A stretch of DNA of 23,257 nt from an uncultured Alcaligenaceae bacterium (GTDB lineage: Bacteria > Planctomycetota > Planctomycetia > Gemmatales > Gemmataceae). Of the stretch, positions 1 to 21,481 are shown piece after piece (positions within the stretch are counted from its first letter, which is position 1; every line of letters begins with the position of its first letter). The notes under the pieces are model-generated. The model did no database searches. It worked only from the letters and a program-made list of their open reading frames with translations, and was not told the DNA's origin. A program made the position numbers and the translations under genes. The stretch is taken from positions 1 through 23,257 of the forward strand of contig CAZFGM010000015.1 in assembly GCA_964518515.1 (NCBI GenBank), in the 5' to 3' direction.

Positions 1-44
1 GAGTCTGCTGTGCTACCGTTACACCATTCCCCAGGGTGAGGCAG

Positions 45-110
45 TTAATATATAATAATAACTTTGCCTTTGGGATTAAACAAGTCGTGTCGATTTGTCA
101 ATCGACCACG
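45..110 (+). promoter_or_regulatory. AT-rich TATAAT-containing segment (51-56) followed by a 7-4-7 inverted repeat GTCGATT-tgtc-AATCGAC (89-106). Candidate promoter/operator at the head of a ~180-nt leader upstream of the NuoH-like gene.
   Basis: TATAAT hexamer at 51-56 in an otherwise GC-rich context. Perfect inverted repeat at 89-106. Further GC palindromes at 150-230 (CGCGGA..TCCGCG, CGCAG..CTGCG). No convincing -35 box. Confidence 0.25.
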
Positions 111-243
111 GAGTGCAAGACCAATTTGCAACGACTCCCCTTAAAACCCGTGTAGCCGCGGACCGCAGATCCGCGTAGACAGGATCCTGTCACCGATAGT
201 ATCCTGCCCGCGCAGTTCTGCGACCTGCGGCTAAACGAGTGGG

Positions 244-1167
244 ATGGAATCCATGATCGTTTTATCGGTTTTTCACTACCTGCTGGCGCTGGCGGGCGCT
301 CCTTTGCTCCTGGGAATCATCAACCGCACGAAAGCGGTGGTAGCGGGACGTGCCGGTCCGCCGCTGTTGCAGCTCTACTACGACCTGTGGAAACTGCTGC
401 ACAAGGGTGTGGTTTATAGCCGGACCACGACGTGGGTTTTCCGGGCCGGGCCGATTGTAGGTCTGGCGGCGGTGGGGACGGCCTTGCTGCTGGTGCCGTT
501 CGGCGGCGTCCCGGCGGTATTGTGGTTTAACGGCGACTTGGTGCTGTTGGCTTACCTTTTGGGTGTGGCCCGTTTCTTTACCGTGGCGGCGGCCCTGGAT
601 ACCGGCTCGAGCTTCGAGGGCATGGGCGCCAGCCGGGAAGTCTTTTTCGCGGCCCTGGTCGAGCCGGCCCTGTTAGTGGGCCTGGCCGCTGTGCTCCGCG
701 AAACCCAGGTCCTGTCGCTGTCCGCCAGTCACGCCCGATTCGCCAACGCAGGCATCTGGTATCAGGCCACCTTGACCTTGTCCCTGGTCACCGCCGCCCT
801 GATGGTCATCTTGCTCGTGGAGAATTGCCGGATTCCCTTCGACGATCCCACCACGCACCTGGAACTGACCATGATCCACGAGGTGATGGTGCTGGATCAC
901 AGCGGGCCGGACTTCGCCTACATCCTGTACGGGGCGGCCTTGAAGCTGTGGCTGGTTGGGGCGCTGGTCGTCGGCCTGGTGATACCGCCCACTGGAATAA
1001 TTGGCGTGGACAGCGTGCTGGCTCTTATGGCCCTGGGTTTGCTGGCCGTTCTAATCGGATTGATCGAATCGTCGATGGCCCGGCTGCGGTTGTTGCGGGT
1101 GCCGCAGTTGCTCGTCGGCGCCACTTCGCTGGCGGTCCTGGCTTTTGTCCTGGAGACCTTGAGGTAA
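244..1167 (+). CDS. Membrane subunit of formate-hydrogenlyase / hydrogenase-4 type complex (HycD/HyfC/EchB family, NuoH homolog)
   Basis: N-terminal signature GIINRTKAVVAGRAGPPLLQLYYDLWKLLHKG matches the conserved GxxR(K)xxARxQxRxGPxxxQxYxDLxKLxxK motif of HycD/NuoH. Polytopic hydrophobic protein of 307 aa. First gene after a long leader. Confidence 0.85.
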   Translation: MESMIVLSVFHYLLALAGAPLLLGIINRTKAVVAGRAGPPLLQLYYDLWKLLHKGVVYSRTTTWVFRAGPIVGLAAVGTALLLVPFGGVPAVLWFNGDLVLLAYLLGVARFFTVAAALDTGSSFEGMGASREVFFAALVEPALLVGLAAVLRETQVLSLSASHARFANAGIWYQATLTLSLVTAALMVILLVENCRIPFDDPTTHLELTMIHEVMVLDHSGPDFAYILYGAALKLWLVGALVVGLVIPPTGIIGVDSVLALMALGLLAVLIGLIESSMARLRLLRVPQLLVGATSLAVLAFVLETLR

Positions 1168-1195
1168 GCAACCAGCGCTCAATAAGTGCTTGTTT

Positions 1196-1254
1196 CTGTA
1201 GGACGGATTTCCAATCCGTCCTCGCCCGCAGACGATTAGAAATCCGTCCTACAC
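1196..1254. repeat. Intercistronic palindromic element, family A (nested hairpins).
   Basis: Inner hairpin GGACGGATT-tcc-AATCCGTCC at 1201-1221. Outer 14-bp arms GTAGGACGGATTTC (1198-1211) and GAAATCCGTCCTAC (1239-1252). Lies in the 101-nt gap between the NuoH-like and HyfE-like genes. Confidence 0.6.
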
Positions 1255-1268
1255 GAGATAGTAAGAAC

Positions 1269-1907
1269 ATGGTGTCGTTTCTGCTGGTTTTTGTCGTGCT
1301 GACGAATCTGGCCCTGGTCGGCTCGAGCCGGCTGGCCCTGGGGATTCGCGTGCTGGCGGGTCAGGGCGTTGCTCTGGGCCTGTTGCCGCTGGCGCTTCCG
1401 GGTCATGAGCTGGTTTGGCGGCTCTATCTCATTGCCGCCGCCAGCATTGGATTAAAGGGAGTAGTTTTTCCGCGCATGTTGTTTCGCGCCATGCGCGACG
1501 CCAATATCCGCCATGAAGTCGAGCCGTATGTGGGCTTTTCGGTGTCCATTCTGGCGGGAGTTTTAACTCTGGGTTTGGCGGTGTGGCTGGGGCCGCGGCT
1601 GGACCTGGGCTTGCCGCGGGCATACGATCCGCTGATATTGCCGACCGCGCTGTTTGCCGTGTTGATCGGCCTGTTTTTGATCGTCAGCCGAAGAAAGGCC
1701 TTGATGCAGGTCATGGGATATCTCGCCCTGGAAAACGGCATCTACCTGTTCGGCATCACGCTGGCGGCCGAGGAGCCATTTTTGGTGGAAATGGGAGTCC
1801 TGTTGGATGTGTTCGTGGCCGTGTTTGTCATGGGGATTGCGATCTTCCATATCAGCCGCGAGTTCGATCACATGGACGTGGAAAAGCTGTCGAGCTTGAA
1901 AGATTGA
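1269..1907 (+). CDS. Hydrogenase-4 component E-like small membrane subunit (HyfE family)
   Basis: 213 aa. C-terminal half (RKALMQVMGYLALENGIYLFGITLAAEEPFLVEMGVLLDVFVAVFVM ... HMDVEKLSSLKD) is collinear with E. coli HyfE (RNILRQIFGYCLMENGSHLVLALLA ... LDVNNLTALKG). The track ORF 825-1907 is an in-frame upstream extension that overlaps the previous gene. ATG at 1269 gives the homologous start. Confidence 0.85.
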   Translation: MVSFLLVFVVLTNLALVGSSRLALGIRVLAGQGVALGLLPLALPGHELVWRLYLIAAASIGLKGVVFPRMLFRAMRDANIRHEVEPYVGFSVSILAGVLTLGLAVWLGPRLDLGLPRAYDPLILPTALFAVLIGLFLIVSRRKALMQVMGYLALENGIYLFGITLAAEEPFLVEMGVLLDVFVAVFVMGIAIFHISREFDHMDVEKLSSLKD

Positions 1908-1915
1908 GCGTTGCG

Positions 1916-1976
1916 TTCCGAGCCGGAAGCGTTAGCGATGCCAACCAAGAACCTCGCTTACGCTTCCGGCTCGGAA
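1916..1976. repeat. Intercistronic palindromic element, family B, copy 1
   Basis: 20-bp arms CCGAGCCGGAAGCGTTAGCG (1918-1937) and CGCTTACGCTTCCGGCTCGG (1955-1974), with one mismatch and a loop containing AACCAA. Lies in the 86-nt gap between the HyfE-like and antiporter-like genes. Confidence 0.6.
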
Positions 1977-1993
1977 ATTTCCCGAGGGAACCG

Positions 1994-3475
1994 ATGCTCG
2001 TCGCGATAATCTTACTTCCGGCCCTGGCGGGGATAGCGTCATTTGCCCTCCCCTGGCACGGGGTGCGGCGGCTGCTTTGGGTGGTCACGGCCGGCGGCCA
2101 TGGGTTCCTGACGGTGGCTCTGTGGCTGGAGCCGCCGCCGCCGGCGCATGCCGACGACGTGCTGTTTCTGGACGCTGCCGGGCAGATTTTTCTCGGCATC
2201 ACCAGCCTGTTGTTTCTGGTCGCCGCGGTGTACGGCGTGGGGTACCTGGCCAAGGAAAAAGTGGGCCCGCGGCCCGACTTCTTCGCGACCTTGCTGTTCC
2301 GCAATGAACCCGAGGCAGTCTTTACGGGATGTTTGCTGCTTTTTCTGTCCTCCATGACTTTGGTGATCGTCAGTCAACATTTCGGTTTGATGTGGGTGGC
2401 CATCGAGGCGACGACGCTGGCCAGCGCCCCGCTCATCTATTTTCACCGGCACCCGCGTTCCCTGGAGGCGGCCTGGAAATACTTGCTGATTTGTTCGGTG
2501 GGCATCGCCCTGGCCCTTTTGGGCAATTATCTTTTGGCGGCGTGGGCCCGGCCGCTGGCCGGCGAACACTTTTCCTTGACCCTCGGCCACCTGCGCGGCA
2601 CGAGCGCCGCCAAGCTGTCCGAGCCGGCCCTGATGGCCGCCTTCCTGTTTTTCCTTGTCGGTTACGGCACCAAGATGGGCCTGGCCCCGTTGCACACCTG
2701 GCTGCCGGACGCCCACAGCGAAGCGCCGTCGCTGGTATCCGCCTTGCTCTCCGGGGCCTTGCTCAACTGCTCCCTTTTGGCCCTGTTGCGGGCCTTTCAG
2801 GTGTGCCTGAGCGCCGGTTTGGGAGATTTCGCCCGTGAGCTATTGATCCTGTTCGGCTTGATTTCCATGGGCGTGGCCGCGGTTTTCATTCTCGGCCAGA
2901 CCGATTTCAAACGCATGTTGGCCTATTCGTCGGTCGAGCACATGGGCATCTTGGCCCTGGGGATCGGCCTGGGCGGGCAGGCGGGACCCTACGGTGCGAT
3001 GCTGCACGCCATCAACCATTCGCTGACCAAGGCGACTCTGTTTTTGGCGGCCGGCAATATCCTGGCCGCCTTTCACACCAAGAACGTCCACGATGTTCGC
3101 GGCTTGGCGCGCGTCTTGCCCGTCACGGGCCTGTTGTGGCTGGGGGGCTTTCTCGCCCTGACCGGTTCGCCGCCGTTTGGTCCGTTCCTGAGCGAGTTCA
3201 CCATTCTCAAGGCGGCCCTGGAGGCCGATCGTCCCCTGGTGGCTGTCCTATACCTGGTGTTCCTGGCCCTCATCTTCGTCGGCATGGCGACGATCGTCTT
3301 GCGGATGGTGCAAGGCCCCGCGGGTTTTCTTCCCGGAGAGGCCAAACGGGAACGCTGGTGGGCGATCCTGCCGCCGGCCCTTCTGGGTCTGGGCGTGCTC
3401 GTTCTGGGACTGTACGTGCCGCCAGTATTGCAGCAGGTCCTGGAAAACGCCGGGCACACGCTGGGGGGACGATGA
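1994..3475 (+). CDS. Complex-I antiporter-like subunit (NuoN/NuoM/HyfF-HyfD family) of the hydrogenase-4-like module
   Basis: 493 aa polytopic membrane protein with NuoL/M/N-family conserved stretches (GYGTKMGLAPLHTWLPDAHSEAPSLVSALLSGALLN; AYSSVEHMGILALGIG). ATG at 1994 is preceded by GAGGGA. The track ORF 1583-3475 is an upstream in-frame extension. Confidence 0.8.
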   Translation: MLVAIILLPALAGIASFALPWHGVRRLLWVVTAGGHGFLTVALWLEPPPPAHADDVLFLDAAGQIFLGITSLLFLVAAVYGVGYLAKEKVGPRPDFFATLLFRNEPEAVFTGCLLLFLSSMTLVIVSQHFGLMWVAIEATTLASAPLIYFHRHPRSLEAAWKYLLICSVGIALALLGNYLLAAWARPLAGEHFSLTLGHLRGTSAAKLSEPALMAAFLFFLVGYGTKMGLAPLHTWLPDAHSEAPSLVSALLSGALLNCSLLALLRAFQVCLSAGLGDFARELLILFGLISMGVAAVFILGQTDFKRMLAYSSVEHMGILALGIGLGGQAGPYGAMLHAINHSLTKATLFLAAGNILAAFHTKNVHDVRGLARVLPVTGLLWLGGFLALTGSPPFGPFLSEFTILKAALEADRPLVAVLYLVFLALIFVGMATIVLRMVQGPAGFLPGEAKRERWWAILPPALLGLGVLVLGLYVPPVLQQVLENAGHTLGGR

Positions 3476-3484
3476 TGGCAGCTT

Positions 3485-3543
3485 GTGGGGCACGTTTTCA
3501 ACGTGCCGGTGGTGGGGGCAGGCACGTTGAAAACGTGCCCCAC
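3485..3543. repeat. Intercistronic palindromic element, family C (two self-complementary hairpins that also pair with each other).
   Basis: Arms GTGGGGCACGTTTTCAACGTGCC (3485-3507) and GGCACGTTGAAAACGTGCCCCAC (3521-3543) are perfect reverse complements. Each arm is itself a hairpin (GCACGTT..AACGTGC). Lies in the 88-nt gap before the large-subunit gene. Confidence 0.6.
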
Positions 3544-3563
3544 TTCCAAACGCTGGGAGGTCG

Positions 3564-5174
3564 ATGATGGCCGACGCCGCGCTGCCCTGGTTTTTCAATG
3601 CCCAGCCGATCTCGCTGCGCGACCTACCGTGCTTGACGGTGGACCGGTTCCGCGCCACGCTGCTCGACCAGGTCCGCCAGGGGAGTCGCGTCGTCGCTTT
3701 TTTCGGACAATTCCGAGCCGGAAGCGTAAGCGACGGTCTAACCAAACCCGTCGCTTACGCTTCCGGCTCGGACGTCGCTTACGCTTCCGGCTCGGACGGA
3801 GCACAGGGGGTGGTCCGCCTCTACGCGGTCCTGGCCCAGCGCGAAGAAGGCCAGTTGACCGCCCTGGCGTGCGACGTGGACGATCGCTACCCCGCCCTAA
3901 CACCGGATTGCCCGCAAGTCCACTGGTTCGAGCGGGAAATTGCCGAGCAGTGGGGCGTAATTCCGGAAGGGCATCCGTGGCTCAAGCCGATTCGCTTTCA
4001 CCGCTCGTATCGGCCCGGCCACGACGCCTGGGGCCGTTCCGCGGACGATCCCATCCAGCCGTGCGTCACGGACTATTTCCAGGTGGCGGGCAGCGAGATT
4101 CATGAGGTGGCCGTCGGGCCGGTGCATGCAGGAGTGATCGAGCCGGGGCACTTCCGCTTTCAGTGCCACGGCGAAAAAGTCTATCACCTGGAAATAGCGC
4201 TGGGCTATCAGCATCGTGGCGTGGAGCCGGCCCTGCGCGGCGGGCCAAACAAGCGAACCATTCATTACATGGAAACCCTAGCCGGCGACACGACAGTCGG
4301 CCACGCCACGGCCTACTGCCAGGCGTTGGAGGCCCTGGCAGAAACCGCGGTGCCGTTTCGGGCCCAGGCCGTGCGAGCGGTGGGCCTCGAATTGGAACGC
4401 CTGGCCAACCACACCGGCGACGTCGGCGCCCTGGCCGCCGACGTCGGCTATTTGTCCACCGCCGCCTACTGCGGTCGGCTGCGCGGCGACTTTCTCAACG
4501 CTACCGCTCTCCTCTGCGGCAGCCGGTTCGGACGCGGCCTGGTCCGACCAGGCGGCGTGGGCTTCGATTTGGAGGCCGCGCGCCTCCAGGATTTGCAAGG
4601 CCGGTTGACCGCCGCCCTCAAAGACGTGACCGGCGCCGTCAACCTGCTCTGGCATACCCCCTCGGTGCAGGCCCGCTTCGAAGAAACCGGCGCCGTGTCG
4701 CAGAGGGCCTGTCTGGAAATCGGCCTGGTAGGTCCCGCCGCCCGCGCCTGCGGCGTCGATCACGATGTCCGACACGATTTCCCGACCGGCATCTTTCGCT
4801 TCATGCAGATTCCGGTTTCCACTGCCCTCACAGGAGACGTCTTCGCCCGCGCCTACGTCCGCTGGCTGGAAATTCAGCGTTCGGGGGAATTTTTGCAGCA
4901 GCAGCTCCGCAGCCTGCCCGCTGGCCCGGTCCGCGTTCCTCTCGGGGGATTGATGCCGGACGCCTTGGTGGTGTCGCTGGTCGAGGGCTGGCGCGGGGAA
5001 ATCTGCCATGTCGCCCTGACCGACGCCCACGGCCGGTTCGCCGCCTACAAAGTCGTCGATCCGTCGTTCCACAACTGGTTCGGTCTGGCCCTCGCCCTGC
5101 GCGGCCAGCAGATATCCGATTTCCCGCTATGCAACAAGAGCTTCAATCTGTCCTATTGCGGACATGACCTGTAA
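3564..5174 (+). CDS. NuoC-NuoD fusion 'large subunit' homolog of group-4 hydrogenases (HycE/HyfG-like) lacking the N-terminal [NiFe] cysteine pair. Energy-converting hydrogenase-related (Ehr-type) catalytic-subunit homolog.
   Basis: N-terminal NuoC-like motif RYPALTPDCPQVHWFEREIAEQWGVIPEGHPWL. NuoD/large-subunit core GPVHAGVIEPGHFRF and HRGVE. The L1 motif position reads ETLAGDTTVGHATAY instead of ERxCGxCxxxHSTAY. The C-terminus reads DFPLCNKSFNLSYC instead of DPCxxCxxR. The start may be ATG 3564 or 3567 (RBS GGGAGG at 3556-3561). Confidence 0.8.
   Translation: MMADAALPWFFNAQPISLRDLPCLTVDRFRATLLDQVRQGSRVVAFFGQFRAGSVSDGLTKPVAYASGSDVAYASGSDGAQGVVRLYAVLAQREEGQLTALACDVDDRYPALTPDCPQVHWFEREIAEQWGVIPEGHPWLKPIRFHRSYRPGHDAWGRSADDPIQPCVTDYFQVAGSEIHEVAVGPVHAGVIEPGHFRFQCHGEKVYHLEIALGYQHRGVEPALRGGPNKRTIHYMETLAGDTTVGHATAYCQALEALAETAVPFRAQAVRAVGLELERLANHTGDVGALAADVGYLSTAAYCGRLRGDFLNATALLCGSRFGRGLVRPGGVGFDLEAARLQDLQGRLTAALKDVTGAVNLLWHTPSVQARFEETGAVSQRACLEIGLVGPAARACGVDHDVRHDFPTGIFRFMQIPVSTALTGDVFARAYVRWLEIQRSGEFLQQQLRSLPAGPVRVPLGGLMPDALVVSLVEGWRGEICHVALTDAHGRFAAYKVVDPSFHNWFGLALALRGQQISDFPLCNKSFNLSYCGHDL
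3711..3796. repeat. Family B palindromic element, copy 2, sitting in frame inside the large-subunit CDS. Its right arm is tandemly duplicated (2 x 24 nt).
   Basis: Perfect 25-bp arms TCCGAGCCGGAAGCGTAAGCGACGG (3712-3736) and CCGTCGCTTACGCTTCCGGCTCGGA (3748-3772). Loop tctaaccaaac. The 24-nt unit CGTCGCTTACGCTTCCGGCTCGGA repeats at 3749-3772 and 3773-3796. Translated as ...SVSDGLTKPVAYASGSDVAYASGSD... in a loop region of the NuoC-like domain. Confidence 0.6.
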
Positions 5175-5277: not shown

Positions 5278-5318
5278 GATAAAGTTCGCCCTTGGTGCAT
5301 TTTGGGGGGAGTGGAGAA

Positions 5319-7211
5319 ATGCCGCGCTTTTACGGATTGGGTTGGGTACTGGCTGCCGTTGGCCTGGTGCTTTCGGGCGTTCACGCCGGCACCTCGAACA
5401 GCTTGTTAGATGTGTCGCCGGACGGCAAATATCTCCTGGCCGCCAACGCCGACAACGCCACGGTCACGGTGGTCGATACCCAGGGACGCAAGGCCCTGCG
5501 GGAAATCAAGGTCGGCGACAAGCCCGAAAGCGTGACCTGGATCGGCGCCGGCCCGCTGGCCGCCGCCGCGGTGTACAAGGAAAACCAGGTCGTAATTTTC
5601 AACACCCAGAATGGTGGGCTGGTCCGGCGAATCCCGGTCTCTCCGGAGCCCTACGGCATCGTGGCCGACAAGGCCGGCAAGCGCGCCTGGGTCACCCACG
5701 AATATCCGGGCACGATCAGCGAAATCGATCTGGAAAACCATAAAGTGCTTCGCGAAATCAAGGCCGGTGCCTTCCTGCGCGGCATGGCTCTTAGCCCGGA
5801 TGAAAAGTGCCTTTATGTCGCCGAGTTTTACACGGGCATCCTCCGCGCCGTCGATCTGGCCTCCGGAAAAGTGGCCGATTCGTGGAAAGGCCACAGCACC
5901 GATAACCTGGCCCGGCACGTTGCCCTGCATCCGCGGCGGCCGAAGGCCTACCTGGCCCACCTCCGCTCGATGGTCACGGTCAACGACGGCAGCGGCTCGA
6001 TCTTTCCGCACCTCAGCATCTGCGACCTGAAGCCGGGAGAGGGCCGGCGCCGCAACGCCTTCGGCATGGATACCTTTAACAATCTATCCGTCGTTACCAA
6101 TCCCTGGGAGACCGCCCTTTCGCCGGACGCCAAACGGTTGTACGTCATCTATGCCGCCACCAACGACATGAATGTTTGCAATGTCGTGGACGATGATTAC
6201 AACGAGATGGATCGGGTCGGCGGCCTGGTGCGCCTGGGCAACAATCCCCGCGCCGTGCGCGTCAGTCCGGACAGCAAGACGGTGTACATTTACAACGCCA
6301 TGGATTTCGCCGTCGCGGTTTACAATGCCGACATGAAATTCCTGGCCACGATCAAGGTGTGCGATCCGCCGGCGACCAAGACACCGGAGTGGGTGCGTGG
6401 CAAGATCCTGTTCAACACCTCCAATCCACCGCTGTCCAGCCGGCGCTGGGTGGCCTGCTCGTCGTGCCATCCGGACGGCCATCACGACGCGCGCGTGTGG
6501 CAGCAACCGGAGGGGCTGCGCAAAACGACCGCCTTTTTCGGCATGGCCCACACGCATCCGTTGCACTGGTCCGCCGACCGCGACGAGGTCCAGGATTTCG
6601 AGTTCACCATCCGCAGCCAGCTCATGCAAGGCCGGGGCTTGTTGACCGGGCCGATCAAGAGCAAGCGCGGTTTCGAAAAAGTTGAGCTGGAGGAAAAAAC
6701 TTCCGGCCGATCCAAGGACCTGGACGCCCTGGCCATTTACTGCAACTCCTTCGATTTCCCGCTGTCGCCGCACATCCAGGCGCCGGGCAAGCTCAAACCC
6801 GAGGCCGAGCGCGGCAAGAAGCTCTTTTTCAGCAAAGAAGTTGGCTGCGCCGGCTGCCATAGCGGGCCCTACTTCACCGATAGCAGCTTGAAAAAACCGT
6901 TTGTCATGCACGACGTCGGCACCGGCAACGACGATCCCACCGAGAAAATGGGGGCCATATATGACACCCCCACCTTGCTCGGCATATATCGCACCGCTCC
7001 CTACCTTCACCATGGCAAGGCCAAGACCCTGCACGAAGTCTTGACCGTGTTCAACAAACAGGACAAGCACGGGCGGACCAGCCACCTCAAGAAAGACGAG
7101 CTTGATGATCTGGCGGCGTTCCTGCAAGCGTTGCCGTACGAGCCGCCGCCGGCGGTGACGCCCAACACGGTGGACTTCCGCGTGCCGCCGGGGTACCAGG
7201 CCAAGCCGTAA
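5319..7211 (+). CDS. Secreted fusion protein: N-terminal YVTN-type beta-propeller repeats plus C-terminal di-heme cytochrome c peroxidase (CCP/MauG family) domain.
   Basis: Signal peptide MPRFYGLGWVLAAVGLVLSGVHA. At least four SPDxKxLYVxN...V.VVD repeats (SPDGKYLLAANADNATVTVVD, SPDEKCLYVAEF, SPDAKRLYVIYAATND, SPDSKTVYIYNAMD). Two CxxCH haem motifs (CSSCH, CAGCH). CCP-like WSADR and CAGCHSGPYFTD. TAPYLHHGKAKTLHEVL resembles CCP TAPYMHDG but Met is replaced by Leu. Confidence 0.75.
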   Translation: MPRFYGLGWVLAAVGLVLSGVHAGTSNSLLDVSPDGKYLLAANADNATVTVVDTQGRKALREIKVGDKPESVTWIGAGPLAAAAVYKENQVVIFNTQNGGLVRRIPVSPEPYGIVADKAGKRAWVTHEYPGTISEIDLENHKVLREIKAGAFLRGMALSPDEKCLYVAEFYTGILRAVDLASGKVADSWKGHSTDNLARHVALHPRRPKAYLAHLRSMVTVNDGSGSIFPHLSICDLKPGEGRRRNAFGMDTFNNLSVVTNPWETALSPDAKRLYVIYAATNDMNVCNVVDDDYNEMDRVGGLVRLGNNPRAVRVSPDSKTVYIYNAMDFAVAVYNADMKFLATIKVCDPPATKTPEWVRGKILFNTSNPPLSSRRWVACSSCHPDGHHDARVWQQPEGLRKTTAFFGMAHTHPLHWSADRDEVQDFEFTIRSQLMQGRGLLTGPIKSKRGFEKVELEEKTSGRSKDLDALAIYCNSFDFPLSPHIQAPGKLKPEAERGKKLFFSKEVGCAGCHSGPYFTDSSLKKPFVMHDVGTGNDDPTEKMGAIYDTPTLLGIYRTAPYLHHGKAKTLHEVLTVFNKQDKHGRTSHLKKDELDDLAAFLQALPYEPPPAVTPNTVDFRVPPGYQAKP

Positions 7212-13185: not shown

Positions 13186-14130
13186 ATGGATCACGATCAA
13201 CGGTTCAAGATTATGCTCCAGGAATTTTTCGCCGATTTCCTGCAGCTTTTCTTCGCCGATTGGGCCTTGCGGCTGGATTGTCAGGCGGTGCAATGGATTG
13301 ACAAGGAAGTTTTTTCGGACCCGCCGGAAGGCCGGCGTCGCGTTCTGGATTTGGTGGGCAAAGTGCCTACCCGCCAAGGCGTTTCCGGCCAGAGGCCGGG
13401 GGATCCCGAGCAATGGTTGGCCCTGGTCCACATCGAGATCGAATCGCCGGACCGGACCACGCCGCTGAAGCCGCGCCTGTTCCGCATGTATGCCAACTTG
13501 CGGGACAAGTATGAACTGCCGGTGTTGCCGATCGGCTTGTTTCTCAAAGTTGGCCTTGAGGGCATCGGCATCGAGCTTTACGAAGAATACTTCTGGGAAT
13601 TCTGCCCGGTGACGTTTCGCTTTTTGTATGTTGGGTTGCCGGCCCTGGATGGGTTAAAATATGTGCAAGGCGACAACTGGCTGGGCGTGGCCCTGTCGGC
13701 CTTGATGAAAATCCCAAAGGAAAAAGTGGCCTGGCTGGGCGCCGAAGCGTTGCGCCGTCTGGTCGAGGCCCCCTTGACGGATCAACAAAAATTTTTACTG
13801 GCCGAATGCGTGCAAGCCTACCTGCCGTTGGACGAGGCACAGCAACAAGAATACGAACGTATCGTGGCCGGCGAACCTTATCAAGGAGTAACAGCGATGA
13901 ATACGACCTGGTTTGAAAAAGGTATCAAAAAAGGACGTGAAGAAGGACGAGAAGAAGGAAGGGAAATAGGTCTGCGCGACGTATTGCCGGACCAACTCCA
14001 GGACCGATTTGGTCCGTTACCGGACAAAGTCTTGGATCGGCTTCAGAAAATGTCCGGGGAAGAGTTGACCAAGGTGGGTAAGGCGCTCGTGCGGGCCAAG
14101 TCGCTAAAGGACCTGGGCTTAGAAAGCTGA
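13186..14130 (+). CDS. Rpn-family-like (PD-(D/E)XK-type) recombination-promoting nuclease homolog with C-terminal DUF4351 domain
   Basis: N-terminus MDHDQRFKIMLQEFFADFLQLFF...IDKEVFSD...RRRVLDLVGKV...HIEIES gives a D...ExE/Q nuclease-like pattern. C-terminus LQDRFGPLPDKVLDRLQKMSGEELTKVGKALVRAKSLKDLGL is DUF4351-like. Starts 3 nt after the permease stop. Confidence 0.6.
   Translation: MDHDQRFKIMLQEFFADFLQLFFADWALRLDCQAVQWIDKEVFSDPPEGRRRVLDLVGKVPTRQGVSGQRPGDPEQWLALVHIEIESPDRTTPLKPRLFRMYANLRDKYELPVLPIGLFLKVGLEGIGIELYEEYFWEFCPVTFRFLYVGLPALDGLKYVQGDNWLGVALSALMKIPKEKVAWLGAEALRRLVEAPLTDQQKFLLAECVQAYLPLDEAQQQEYERIVAGEPYQGVTAMNTTWFEKGIKKGREEGREEGREIGLRDVLPDQLQDRFGPLPDKVLDRLQKMSGEELTKVGKALVRAKSLKDLGLES
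13897..14130 (+). CDS. Candidate internal in-frame small ORF (77 aa) expressing only the DUF4351 domain of the Rpn-like gene (RpnS-like).
   Basis: AAGGAG at 13883-13888 lies 8 nt before an in-frame ATG at 13897, inside the larger ORF. The same cctatcaaggag...gcgATGaa context precedes the stand-alone paralog at 14210. Confidence 0.3.
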   Translation: MNTTWFEKGIKKGREEGREEGREIGLRDVLPDQLQDRFGPLPDKVLDRLQKMSGEELTKVGKALVRAKSLKDLGLES

Positions 14131-21372: not shown

Positions 21373-21397
21373 CCGAGATATACCGCGACATTATTAA

Positions 21398-21481
21398 GCC
21401 GGCGAGCTTGCTCGCCGTGGAGGGGATGCTGGCCGCGGCGAGCAAGCTCGCCGGCTAAATGAAATGCCTCTTTTTTTTACG
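21398..21481 (+). terminator. Large perfect hairpin (20-bp arms) downstream of the flotillin gene, followed by a T8 run. Putative terminator / mRNA 3' stabiliser.
   Basis: GCCGGCGAGCTTGCTCGCCG (21398-21417) pairs perfectly with CGGCGAGCAAGCTCGCCGGC (21436-21455). T-run at 21471-21478. The U-tract is about 15 nt from the stem, so this is not a canonical intrinsic terminator. Confidence 0.4.

What the first reader, a model, noticed from the sequence alone, without database searches (positions are those of the whole stretch)
244..5174. Hydrogenase-4-like membrane module whose 'catalytic' subunit lacks the NiFe cysteines (Ehr-type complex)
Seen in sequence: four co-directional genes in hyfC-hyfE-hyfF-hyfG order (NuoH-like, HyfE-like, NuoN/M-like, NuoC-NuoD fusion). 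In the large subunit, the position of the hydrogenase L1 motif ERxCGxCxxxH reads ETLAGDTTVGH, so both Cys are replaced by Ala/Thr. The C-terminal DPCxxCxxR reads DFPLCNKSFNLSYC. Established knowledge: those cysteines ligate the Ni-Fe site in group-4 hydrogenases. Cys-less relatives, called energy-converting hydrogenase-related (Ehr) complexes, are a bioinformatically defined link between hydrogenases and complex I with no assigned function. Inference: this module cannot evolve H2 and probably performs a different ion-translocating redox reaction. Within this window no NuoB-like small subunit or HyfH-like ferredoxin gene follows the large subunit. Instead a promoter and a secreted haem protein follow.
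Basis: partly seen in the sequence, partly recalled or inferred. Interest (0 to 1): 0.75.

Follow-up and report, generated by a model that had tools for sequence, protein, structure and literature searches.

The report
Incomplete Ehr hydrogenase-like gene cluster
These four genes encode part of an Ehr complex, a widespread membrane machine derived from hydrogenases that has lost its nickel-iron site and still has no known job; this copy is an ordinary member, except that two subunit genes and the regulator gene are missing from the contig.

Summary
Window 244-5174 carries four co-directional genes: HyfC/HycD-like, HyfE-like, HyfF-like and a NuoC-NuoD-type fusion closest to E. coli HycE. All four Ni-Fe cysteines are replaced: RVCGICGFAH becomes TLAGDTTVGH, and DPCYSC becomes NLSYCG.

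These are ehrB, ehrC, ehrD and ehrL of the known Ehr (Ech/energy-converting hydrogenase-related) family. Papers from 2025 and 2026 still call its function unknown.

In relatives it has seven genes: an HTH_17+PTS-EIIA regulator, then ehrA, B, C, D, L and S. EhrS is a fused HycF-like/HycG-like protein that keeps all 12 Fe-S cysteines. It follows ehrL in 76 of 76 loci.

This contig lacks the regulator, ehrA and ehrS, yet the four genes show no decay. They deviate at 0, 0, 0 and 1 near-invariant sites, and their evolutionary rate is not accelerated. The missing genes are therefore most likely encoded elsewhere in the genome.

The locus also has stable REP-like hairpins in all three spacers. A fourth hairpin is inserted in frame inside ehrL and adds about 28 residues in a predicted disordered loop.

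Verdict: a new member of a known kind, of modest interest.

The parts
1..243 (.). Non-coding stretch between the contig start and ehrB. It holds no remnant of ehrA or of the regulator gene.
   Evidence: All six frames contain stop codons. tblastn with a relative's regulator and EhrA finds nothing here. The only promoter-like match is weak, at 176-205 with 9 of 12 positions.
244..1167 (+). ehrB, a NuoH/HycD/HyfC-like membrane subunit of 307 aa.
   Evidence: PF00146, 1e-28. It is 72% identical to EhrB of locus L004 and 34% to E. coli HycD. It deviates at 0 of 70 near-invariant family sites.
1197..1253 (.). REP-like hairpin in the ehrB-ehrC spacer.
   Evidence: The arms are 20 nt and 95% complementary. 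Folding energy is -34.9 kcal/mol, z -8.5.
1269..1907 (+). ehrC, a HyfE-like membrane subunit of 212 aa with a NuoK-like C-terminal half.
   Evidence: NCBIfam HyfE equivalog 2.9e-26. PF00420 matches residues 126-211. It is 68% identical to L004 EhrC.
1916..1976 (.). REP-like hairpin in the ehrC-ehrD spacer. It belongs to the same sequence family as the element inside ehrL.
   Evidence: The arms are 23 nt and 96% complementary. Folding energy is -41.6 kcal/mol. Its 21-mer occurs on at least 120 metagenome contigs.
1994..3475 (+). ehrD, a HyfF-like antiporter-type subunit of 493 aa.
   Evidence: PF00361, 2e-56. NCBIfam HyfF, 9.5e-115. It is 40% identical to E. coli HyfF. It keeps the TM5 Glu138, TM7 Lys227 and TM12 Glu401 that align with NuoM E144, K234 and E407.
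3485..3543 (.). REP-like hairpin in the ehrD-ehrL spacer.
   Evidence: The arms are 23 nt and 100% complementary. Folding energy is -48.5 kcal/mol.
3564..5174 (+). ehrL, a NuoC-NuoD-type fusion of 536 aa. It is the Cys-less counterpart of the hydrogenase large subunit.
   Evidence: PF00329 plus PF00346. The best solved relative is HycE 7z0s_E, by sequence (2e-43) and by fold (TM 0.76). It is 65-79% identical to thousands of homologues.
3712..3796 (+). Palindromic REP-like element inserted in frame inside ehrL. It adds about 28 residues (roughly aa 50-80).
   Evidence: A perfect 25-bp stem plus an extra copy of the right arm, -61.3 kcal/mol. The corresponding columns are gaps in 81 of 81 homologues. 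pLDDT is below 50 for residues 54-79, between confident strands 42-50 and 84-92.
4272..4304 (+). Former L1 Ni-Fe motif, ETLAGDTTVGH (aa 237-247).
   Evidence: Aligns with HycE RVCGICGFAH. Across 82 family members, position 240 is A78/S3/G1, G241 and D242 are invariant, and position 243 is T78/S2/M1/A1. There are no cysteines.
5130..5171 (+). Former L2 region and C-terminus, CNKSFNLSYCGHDL (aa 523-536). The protein ends here, with no C-terminal extension.
   Evidence: HycE DPCYSC aligns with NLSYCG. The whole 14-residue tail is at least 96% conserved in 82 sequences.

Best explanation
Window 244-5174 encodes four of the six structural subunits of an Ehr complex: ehrB, ehrC, ehrD and ehrL. Ehr is the known Cys-less sister of group-4 [NiFe] hydrogenases, also called Ech- or energy-converting hydrogenase-related.

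Shown:
- Orthology to genes that sit in canonical regulator-ehrABCDLS clusters.
- Family-wide loss of all four Ni-Fe ligands.
- Intact, normally constrained coding sequences.
- Absence of ehrA, ehrS and the regulator gene from this contig.

Inferred, about 0.6: the genome encodes EhrA and the Fe-S subunit EhrS elsewhere, so this is a split locus of the kind seen in other Planctomycetota. The assembled complex would then be a normal Ehr.

Inferred mechanism for the complex, about 0.35-0.4:
1. A soluble low-potential carrier such as ferredoxin donates electrons to the two [4Fe-4S] clusters of the HycF/NuoI-like half of EhrS.
2. The electrons pass to the proximal cluster in its HycG/NuoB-like half.
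3. They reduce a non-proton acceptor, most plausibly menaquinone. The acceptor would be bound in the remodelled pocket at the EhrL/EhrS/EhrB junction.
4. This redox step drives H+ or Na+ movement through EhrB/EhrC and the antiporter-like EhrD and EhrA. The direction could be reversed.

The complex does not make or consume H2. The hairpins between the genes, and the one inside ehrL, are insertions of dispersed palindromic repeats. They are not part of the machine.
For: Family identity:
- Pfam and NCBIfam hits.
- HycE is the best solved relative by sequence and by fold.
- Hyf and Hyc subunits outscore Nuo subunits.
- Identity to the subunits of locus L004 is 66-75% by tblastn.
- The L1 and L2 cysteines are replaced in the window and in all 82 aligned homologues.
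- Nearly all full-length proteins among the top 150 representatives are Cys-less, and the window sits deep inside that group.

Canonical unit:
- EhrS lies within 1 kb downstream of ehrL in 76 of 76 loci.
- ehrA-B-C-D lie upstream in 60 of 63 loci.
- The HTH_17+PTS_EIIA_2 regulator lies upstream in 60 of 60 loci.
- EhrS is an Fer4 dicluster plus Oxidored_q6 fusion with all 12 cysteines at least 97% conserved.

The window genes are functional rather than decaying:
- They deviate at 0, 0, 0 and 1 of 70, 18, 64 and 138 near-invariant sites.
- Their identity to outgroups equals or exceeds that of the sister locus L004, which has a complete operon.
- The 84-nt insertion is in frame and falls in a variable, low-confidence loop.

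Split loci have precedent. L006 has ehrA divergent from regulator-ehrL-ehrS. L020 has regulator-ehrL-ehrS alone. L063 is also rearranged.

The unit is self-contained. No dehydrogenase or other catalytic partner recurs next to the seven genes, which fits a soluble donor.

Antiporter-type charged residues are retained in EhrD and EhrA.

Literature: ehrABCDLS naming and 'function unknown' (PMC6688271, PMC7894505, PMC10284858, PMC12342949). All Ehr subunits were detected in the Geobacter proteome (PMC7894505).
Against: ehrA, ehrS and the regulator were not found, and I could not reach the rest of the MAG. The split-locus step is therefore an inference.

The acceptor is unknown. At the aligned positions EhrL has neither of the complex I quinone ligands (Nqo4 Tyr87 aligns with Gly241, and His38 with Ile192). 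Instead it keeps hydrogenase-type features: the EPGH loop Glu193 and Arg477.

An invariant set of Cys, His and Asp residues is unexplained by a simple quinone-reductase model. These are C201, C318, C481, H482, C523, C532, H534 and D535, plus D242.

No biochemical data exist for any Ehr.
Confidence: 0.6

Rival explanations
1. A stranded remnant. A rearrangement removed ehrA, ehrS and the regulator gene. The four remaining genes are no longer used and simply have not yet decayed.
For: The window is the only one of more than 76 loci without ehrS after ehrL. Repeat elements have invaded every spacer and the ehrL coding sequence, which suggests local genome turbulence. One 2026 paper treats Geobacter Ehr as dispensable under its conditions (PMC13194489).
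Against: About 4.9 kb contains no frameshift or stop codon. The genes deviate at 0, 0, 0 and 1 near-invariant sites. The rate is not accelerated relative to the sister locus with a complete operon. The insertion kept the reading frame and lies in a variable loop.
Confidence: 0.15
2. An assembly or binning artefact. The organism has a normal regulator-ehrABCDLS operon, and the contig is truncated at the 5' side and mis-joined at the 3' side.
For: This is a MAG contig of 23,257 nt that starts only 243 nt before ehrB. The locus is rich in dispersed repeats that can break or mis-join assemblies.
Against: The 243 nt upstream are non-coding, whereas relatives place ehrA only a few to about 100 nt before ehrB. 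The 145-nt spacer after ehrL contains no repeat. Composition is even across the junction.
Confidence: 0.12
3. A stand-alone EhrBCDL module that works without an Fe-S subunit. It could act as a redox-independent ion transporter, or it could use a non-homologous partner.
For: The four genes are intact and conserved although ehrS and ehrA are absent from the contig.
Against: In all 76 of 76 other loci ehrL is followed by ehrS. The parts of EhrL with the lowest model confidence, the beta1-beta2 loop at 185-193 and the C-terminus at 521-536, are the former active-site elements. In homologous complexes these regions face the small subunit (established knowledge, not tested here). The downstream cytochrome is secreted, whereas EhrL has no signal sequence.
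Confidence: 0.05
4. A genuine [NiFe] group-4 hydrogenase, or an ordinary complex I NuoCD subunit.
For: There is shared fold and homology to both.
Against: All four Ni-Fe cysteines are absent. NCBIfam NuoD scores are far below their cut-offs, at 186.9 against 360. Hyc and Hyf score higher than Nuo. The contig has no nuo operon, no hyp genes and no small subunit.
Confidence: 0.01

Closest known systems
Ehr complexes: Ech/energy-converting hydrogenase-related, ehrABCDLS. First named in Geobacter sulfurreducens (GSU0739-45). Also annotated in Methylacidiphilum and Nitrospirales, and in Margulisbacteria and Saganbacteria.
   Same: [quoted passage not shown] The membrane subunits are HyfC-, HyfE- and HyfF-like. 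Relatives of the window genes sit in the six-gene ehrA-B-C-D-L-S arrangement. Function is unknown.
   Different: This locus has only ehrB, C, D and L. ehrA, ehrS and the upstream HTH_17+PTS-EIIA regulator are absent from the contig. Repeat hairpins fill every spacer, and one is inserted in frame in ehrL. Direct sequence comparison with the Geobacter type proteins was not possible with these tools.
E. coli hydrogenase-4 (HyfABCDEFGHI) and the hydrogenase-3 formate hydrogenlyase (HycBCDEFG, PDB 7Z0S).
   Same: Gene order follows hyfC-hyfE-hyfF-hyfG. HycE is the best sequence and fold match. The large subunit is a NuoC-NuoD fusion. The EPGHFR loop and the active-site Arg are conserved.
   Different: Identity is only 29-40%. 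The Ni-Fe cysteines are gone. There is no C-terminal maturation peptide, no HyfA/HycB, no HyfD and no formate dehydrogenase link. In Ehr relatives the HycF- and HycG-like subunits are fused into one protein.
Respiratory complex I and its 11-subunit ferredoxin-dependent relatives (NDH-1, Fpo).
   Same: Modular architecture with NuoH-, NuoK-, NuoM/N-, NuoC- and NuoD-like subunits. There is no metal site in the NuoD-like subunit. Antiporter-type Glu and Lys residues are present. This is the likely mechanistic analogue: electron transfer to a membrane acceptor coupled to ion pumping.
   Different: The genes are closer to Hyf and Hyc than to Nuo. The quinone-ligating Tyr and His of NuoD are not present at the aligned positions. 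There are no NuoA, J, L, E, F or G genes.
Pyrococcus furiosus MBH (6CFW) and MBS/Mbx (6U8Y).
   Same: Group-4-type membrane-bound complexes. MBS/Mbx is another hydrogenase relative that does not reduce protons.
   Different: Sequence similarity is weaker: MbhL 1e-33 and MbsL 6e-18, against HycE 2e-43. The membrane module is different (Mrp-type).

Membership tests
Ehr (Ech/energy-converting hydrogenase-related) complex | The large subunit is homologous to the group-4 [NiFe]-hydrogenase large subunit. | tested here: met
   HycE 7z0s_E scores 2e-43 by sequence and TM 0.76 by fold. MbhL scores 1e-33. HycE and HyfG outscore NuoCD by blastp.
Ehr (Ech/energy-converting hydrogenase-related) complex | The four cysteines that ligate the Ni-Fe centre (the L1 and L2 CxxC motifs) are absent. 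| tested here: met
   The four positions are Ala240, Thr243, Ser530 and Gly533 in the window. No cysteine occupies them in any of 82 aligned homologues.
Ehr (Ech/energy-converting hydrogenase-related) complex | The protein falls in the Cys-less clade, not among true hydrogenases or NuoD. | tested here: met
   In an NJ tree of 93 sequences the window sits next to representative P0122 inside the Cys-less radiation. HycE and HyfG are sister to that group, and NuoCD is the outgroup. The tree is rough and has no support values.
Ehr (Ech/energy-converting hydrogenase-related) complex | Gene set ehrA-B-C-D-L-S: a NuoL/HyfB-like subunit, a NuoH-like subunit, a HyfE-like subunit, a HyfF-like subunit, the large subunit and the Fe-S small subunit. 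| tested here: not met
   B, C, D and L are present. A and S are absent from the whole contig, although relatives have them in 60 of 63 and 76 of 76 loci. This concerns the completeness of the locus. It does not affect the orthology of the four proteins, which are 66-75% identical (tblastn) to subunits from a complete cluster.
Ehr (Ech/energy-converting hydrogenase-related) complex | Orthology to the type Ehr of Geobacter sulfurreducens (GSU0739-45). | not testable with these tools
   The Geobacter sequences could not be retrieved. The link rests on matching subunit descriptions in PMC7894505 and PMC6688271, and on deltaproteobacterial homologues at 58-63% identity.
Group-4 [NiFe] hydrogenase (Hyf, Hyc, Ech, Mbh) | L1 RxCGxCxxxH and L2 DPCxxCxxH/R motifs that ligate Ni-Fe. 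| tested here: not met
   The window reads TLAGDTTVGH and NLSYCGHDL.
Group-4 [NiFe] hydrogenase (Hyf, Hyc, Ech, Mbh) | An adjacent small subunit with the proximal [4Fe-4S] cluster, plus Hyp maturation genes. | tested here: not met
   The window has no Oxidored_q6 or Fer4 gene, and no Hyp family appears among its main ORFs.
Complex I NuoD/NuoCD | Reaches the NuoD equivalog score and lies in a nuo operon. | tested here: not met
   The best NCBIfam NuoD score is 186.9 against a cut-off of 360. No nuoA, B, E, F, G, I, J or L gene is present.
Complex I NuoD/NuoCD | Quinone-ligating Tyr and His (T. thermophilus Nqo4 Tyr87 and His38). | tested here: not met
   In the ungapped phmmer alignment to 2fug_4, Tyr87 aligns with Gly241 and His38 with Ile192. 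A structure-based alignment of the beta1-beta2 loop could shift the His position.

The most novel reading that the evidence does not exclude
The former Ni-Fe pocket of EhrL has not simply been emptied. It may have been rebuilt into a different, still unrecognised catalytic or metal-binding site. The family keeps an invariant constellation: D242 and T243 in L1, C201, C318, C481/H482, and the absolutely conserved C-terminal tail C523-NKSFNLSY-C532-G-H534-D535-L. It also retains the hydrogenase Glu193 and Arg477, next to the conserved proximal cluster of EhrS. If this is right, Ehr would catalyse a new type of ion-coupled redox reaction rather than quinone reduction. A second, window-specific variant is that EhrBCDL functions here without EhrS and EhrA.
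Probability: 0.12. Interest if true: 0.8.

Novelty: new member of a known kind. Interest (0 to 1): 0.3.

Why it matters
Ehr complexes are very widespread. They occur in Planctomycetota, Verrucomicrobiota, Acidobacteriota, NC10, Nitrospirales and Desulfobacterota, among others. They lie between hydrogenases and complex I, yet 20 years after they were named nobody knows what they do.

This window does not change that. It is one more member, from an uncultured organism. Its use is mainly comparative:
- It shows that the seven-gene unit can be broken up without relaxing selection on the remaining genes.
- It shows that a loop of the NuoC-like domain tolerates a 28-residue repeat-derived insertion.

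The family-level patterns collected here give concrete targets for anyone who takes up Ehr biochemistry in a culturable host. These are the fused three-cluster EhrS, the invariant C-terminal tail and Cys/His set in EhrL, the ever-present HTH_17+PTS-EIIA regulator, and the absence of a recurrent partner enzyme.

Tried and rejected
1. I tried to identify the MAG so that ehrS and ehrA could be sought on its other contigs.
- The look-up of encoding contigs found no record for the window's EhrL or its MtnA-like protein.
- The listing of cluster members gave no accession numbers.

2. I scanned JGI metagenome contigs for the 21-mer of the repeat element, hoping to fetch sibling contigs. The scan returned at least 120 unrelated contigs. 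None carries ehr genes, and none shares other DNA with the window.

3. A tblastn hit of E. coli HyfH at 5290-5424 on the minus strand (E 0.008) looked like a possible ehrS remnant. It matches a non-cluster part of HyfH and lies inside the cytochrome gene's signal-peptide region, so I rejected it.

4. I ran a census of the genes flanking the seven-gene unit, looking for a conserved electron-donor partner such as formate dehydrogenase. None recurs. A Rex-like regulator appears in 9 related Verrucomicrobiota loci.

6. I considered whether the downstream secreted cytochrome is a partner. It is absent from all 85 related loci and lies on the other side of the membrane, so I rejected this.

7. The structure tools return no coordinates, so I could not test whether the invariant Cys and His residues cluster in space.

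Full report
**1. What is in the window**

The window is a complete 23,257-nt MAG contig held by NCBI, with about 60% G+C. Positions 1-243 are non-coding in all six frames. Four co-directional genes follow.

| Coordinates | Size | Evidence |
|---|---|---|
| 244-1167 | 307 aa | PF00146 NADHdh, 1e-28 |
| 1269-1907 | 212 aa | NCBIfam HyfE equivalog 2.9e-26; NuoK-like PF00420 in the C-terminal half |
| 1994-3475 | 493 aa | PF00361; NCBIfam HyfF 9.5e-115 |
| 3564-5174 | 536 aa | PF00329 NuoC-like plus PF00346 NuoD-like |

Against E. coli proteins the best matches are always Hyc or Hyf, not Nuo.

| Window protein | Best E. coli matches | Nuo match |
|---|---|---|
| 244-1167 | HycD 34%, HyfC 30% | NuoH 22% |
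| 1269-1907 | HyfE 42% over the C-terminal half | none at E<=0.001 |
| 1994-3475 | HyfF 40% | not the best match |
| 3564-5174 | HycE 165 bits, HyfG 157 bits | NuoCD 104 bits |

**2. The Ni-Fe site**

The best solved relative is E. coli HycE (7z0s_E, E 2e-43). P. furiosus MbhL (1e-33) and T. thermophilus Nqo4 (9e-32) follow.

In the HycE alignment, RVCGICGFAH lies opposite T238-L-A-G-D-T-T-V-G-H247. The two L1 cysteines are thus Ala240 and Thr243. DPCYSC lies opposite N528-L-S-Y-C-G533, so the two L2 cysteines are Ser530 and Gly533. The protein ends three residues later, at H534-D-L536, with no C-terminal maturation peptide.

An AlphaFold model built on 41 sequences (pTM 0.82) matches HycE best (TM 0.76). 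E. coli NuoCD comes next. No closer solved structure exists.

**3. Is this the Ehr family?**

The word-indexed search found thousands of homologues at 65-79% identity. They come from Planctomycetota, Verrucomicrobiota, NC10/Methylomirabilis, Acidobacteriota, Desulfobacterota and other phyla.

In 82 aligned sequences no cysteine occurs at any of the four ligand positions:
- Position 240 is A78/S3/G1.
- Position 243 is T78/S2/M1/A1.
- Position 530 is S in all 82.
- Position 533 is G in all 82.

The exhaustive representative search gave 6364 hits at E<=0.001. Among the full-length proteins of its top 150 representatives, almost all lack the four cysteines, and most end with xNKSFNLSYCGxDL. Four representatives are exceptions: P0242, P0256, P0264 and P0270, at about 35-37% identity. 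They carry all four cysteines in the same frame (ER[VI]CGxC, then NKSF[NE]LCY[SA]C).

In a rough NJ tree the window sits deep in the Cys-less radiation. HycE and HyfG are sister to the whole group, and NuoCD is the outgroup.

The literature calls exactly this kind of cluster Ehr, with genes ehrA, B, C, D, L and S (PMC7894505 for Geobacter GSU0739-45; PMC6688271 for Methylacidiphilum). It still states that the function is unknown and that hydrogenase activity is unlikely (PMC6349859, PMC10284858, PMC12342949, PMC13194489).

**4.

Gene tables for five relatives, including the three closest large subunits P0002, P0003 and P0015, show a conserved seven-gene unit. A tblastn survey of 85 loci confirms it.

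| Gene | Product |
|---|---|
| Regulator | HTH_17 + PTS_EIIA_2 |
| ehrA | HyfB-like, about 665 aa |
| ehrB | NuoH/HycD-like |
| ehrC | HyfE-like |
| ehrD | HyfF-like |
| ehrL | Cys-less large subunit |
| ehrS | Fused Fe-S small subunit |

The unit is highly regular:
- EhrS lies within 1 kb downstream of ehrL in 76 of 76 loci with enough sequence.
- ehrA-D lie upstream in 60 of 63 loci.
- The regulator lies upstream in 60 of 60 loci.

EhrS is a fusion of a HycF/NuoI-like 2x[4Fe-4S] domain and a HycG/NuoB-like domain. All 12 cluster cysteines are at least 97% conserved in 77 sequences. Ehr complexes therefore do have a three-cluster electron wire.

The window contig has none of the regulator, ehrA or ehrS on either strand. 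The one weak HyfH hit is spurious. Instead, 145 nt after ehrL there begins a gene for a secreted beta-propeller/dihaem cytochrome (5320-7211). That gene occurs next to none of the 85 related loci.

**5. Are the four genes still in use?**

They contain no frameshifts or internal stops. At near-invariant family columns (at most two deviants allowed), the window deviates as follows.

| Protein | Deviations | Near-invariant sites |
|---|---|---|
| EhrB | 0 | 70 |
| EhrC | 0 | 18 |
| EhrD | 0 | 64 |
| EhrL | 1 | 138 |

A relative-rate comparison with the sister locus L004, which has a complete operon, shows no acceleration. Mean identity to 64-80 outgroups is -0.1 to +2.9 percentage points higher for the window.

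EhrD keeps the antiporter-type residues TM5 Glu, TM7 Lys and TM12 Glu.

Rearranged ehr loci occur in other Planctomycetota:
- L006 has ehrA divergent from regulator-ehrL-ehrS.
- L020 has regulator-ehrL-ehrS alone.
- L063 is also rearranged.

The most economical reading is a split locus, with ehrA, ehrS and the regulator gene elsewhere in the genome. I could not verify this, because the MAG could not be identified. A recent remnant and an assembly artefact remain possible.

**6. Mechanism (inferred)**

The seven-gene unit has no recurrent neighbouring dehydrogenase. That argues for a soluble donor such as ferredoxin, which would dock on the NuoI/HycF-like half of EhrS as in Ech, MBH and NDH-1 (established knowledge). 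Electrons would reach the proximal cluster and then an acceptor at the EhrL/EhrS/EhrB junction. This would be coupled to ion movement through the EhrB/C and EhrA/D modules.

The acceptor cannot be protons reduced at a Ni-Fe site. Menaquinone is the default candidate by analogy with complex I. However, EhrL lacks the complex I Tyr and His at the aligned positions and keeps the hydrogenase-type EPGH glutamate and active-site arginine.

It also carries an invariant, unexplained set of residues:
- D242
- C201
- C318
- C481 and H482
- C523, C532, H534 and D535

I give the ferredoxin-to-quinone model about 0.35-0.4. A rebuilt catalytic or metal site gets about 0.1.

**7. Repeat elements (side finding)**

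Every ehr spacer contains a long, very stable hairpin.

| Coordinates | Location | Folding energy (kcal/mol) |
|---|---|---|
| 1197-1253 | ehrB-ehrC spacer | -34.9 |
| 1916-1976 | ehrC-ehrD spacer | -41.6 |
| 3485-3543 | ehrD-ehrL spacer | -48.5 |
| 3712-3796 | inside the ehrL coding sequence | -61.3 |

Relatives instead have short or overlapping gene junctions.

The fourth element belongs to the same family as 1916-1976. It has a perfect 25-bp stem and a duplicated right arm. It is in frame and adds about 28 residues (aa 50-80) that are gaps in all 81 homologues. The model shows this segment as a low-confidence loop between two confident strands of the NuoC-like domain.

Its 21-mer occurs five times in the window, against an expectation of 0. 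It also occurs on at least 120 otherwise unrelated metagenome contigs. It is therefore a dispersed REP- or MITE-like element.

**8. Verdict**

This is a new member of a known, function-unknown family. It has an unusual incomplete locus and a tolerated in-frame repeat insertion.

Interest is modest (0.3). Specialists already know Ehr, and this uncultured copy does not make its function more testable.

Noticed in passing
window 1197-1253, 1916-1976, 3485-3543; also 21393-21460: Long, very stable palindromic hairpins (-35 to -61 kcal/mol, z about -8 to -11) occupy each of the three ehr intergenic spacers. Another follows the flotillin-like gene. Relatives have short or overlapping junctions at the same places. 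At least three unrelated hairpin sequences are involved.
   Followed up: partly
window 3712-3796 (ehrL aa ~50-80): A REP-like element of the same family as 1916-1976 is inserted in frame in the coding sequence of a highly conserved respiratory-type subunit. It adds about 28 residues (…AGSVSDGLTKPVAYASGSDVAYASGSD…) that are absent from 81 of 81 homologues. AlphaFold places them in a loop with pLDDT below 50.
   Followed up: yes
Those contigs share no other DNA with the window. This points to a widely dispersed palindromic repeat family of unknown host range.
   Followed up: partly
window 5320-7211 (+): A secreted protein with an N-terminal YVTN/cytochrome-d1-type beta-propeller and a C-terminal MauG/CCP-like part with two CxxCH motifs. 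It has weak, far sub-threshold similarity to hydrazine synthase beta/gamma models (103 bits against a cut-off of 1250). It is not linked to ehr in any of the 85 related loci.
   Followed up: no
loci L001-L085, gene directly upstream of ehrA (e.g. L004 4176-4865): A small HTH_17 + PTS_EIIA_2 protein precedes the ehr genes in 60 of 60 loci with enough upstream DNA. This suggests that Ehr expression is tied to a PTS(Ntr)-type phosphorylation signal. I did not find this mentioned in the papers I read.
   Followed up: partly
EhrL family alignment (window aa 201, 318, 481-482, 523-536): Cysteines and histidines at non-ligand positions are invariant or nearly so: C201, C318, C481, H482, C523, C532 and H534. 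The last 14 residues, CNKSFNLSYCGHDL, are almost invariant across phyla. No current model of Ehr explains this.
   Followed up: partly
representatives P0242, P0256, P0264, P0270: Four relatives at about 35-37% identity carry all four Ni-Fe cysteines within the same C-terminal frame (NKSF[NE]LCY[SA]C), and they end without an extension. In a rough NJ tree they nest beside Cys-less sequences. Several Cys-less-clade members keep only the first L1 cysteine (for example ESICGDS).
   Followed up: partly
L006 4969-6969; L006, L020, L063 overall: Three loci have rearranged ehr clusters. In L006 (Pirellulaceae), ehrS is followed by a SulP-family transporter fused to a P-II domain, and ehrA is divergently oriented. 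L020 has only regulator-ehrL-ehrS. L063 has regulator-ehrD-like-ehrL-ehrS.
   Followed up: partly
nine Verrucomicrobiota loci, first gene downstream of ehrS (about 630-nt minus-strand ORFs; e.g. L013, L015, L017, L018, L021): In 9 of the 69 downstream neighbours scanned, a Rex-type gene (Put_DNA-bind_N + CoA_binding) lies convergently just after ehrS. The loci are related to each other, so they do not count as independent evidence.
   Followed up: no
window 13186-14130 (+): An ORF with a DUF4351 C-terminal domain sits between an FtsX-like permease gene and an ABC ATPase gene. It may be a mobile-element-related insertion into a transporter cluster.
   Followed up: no
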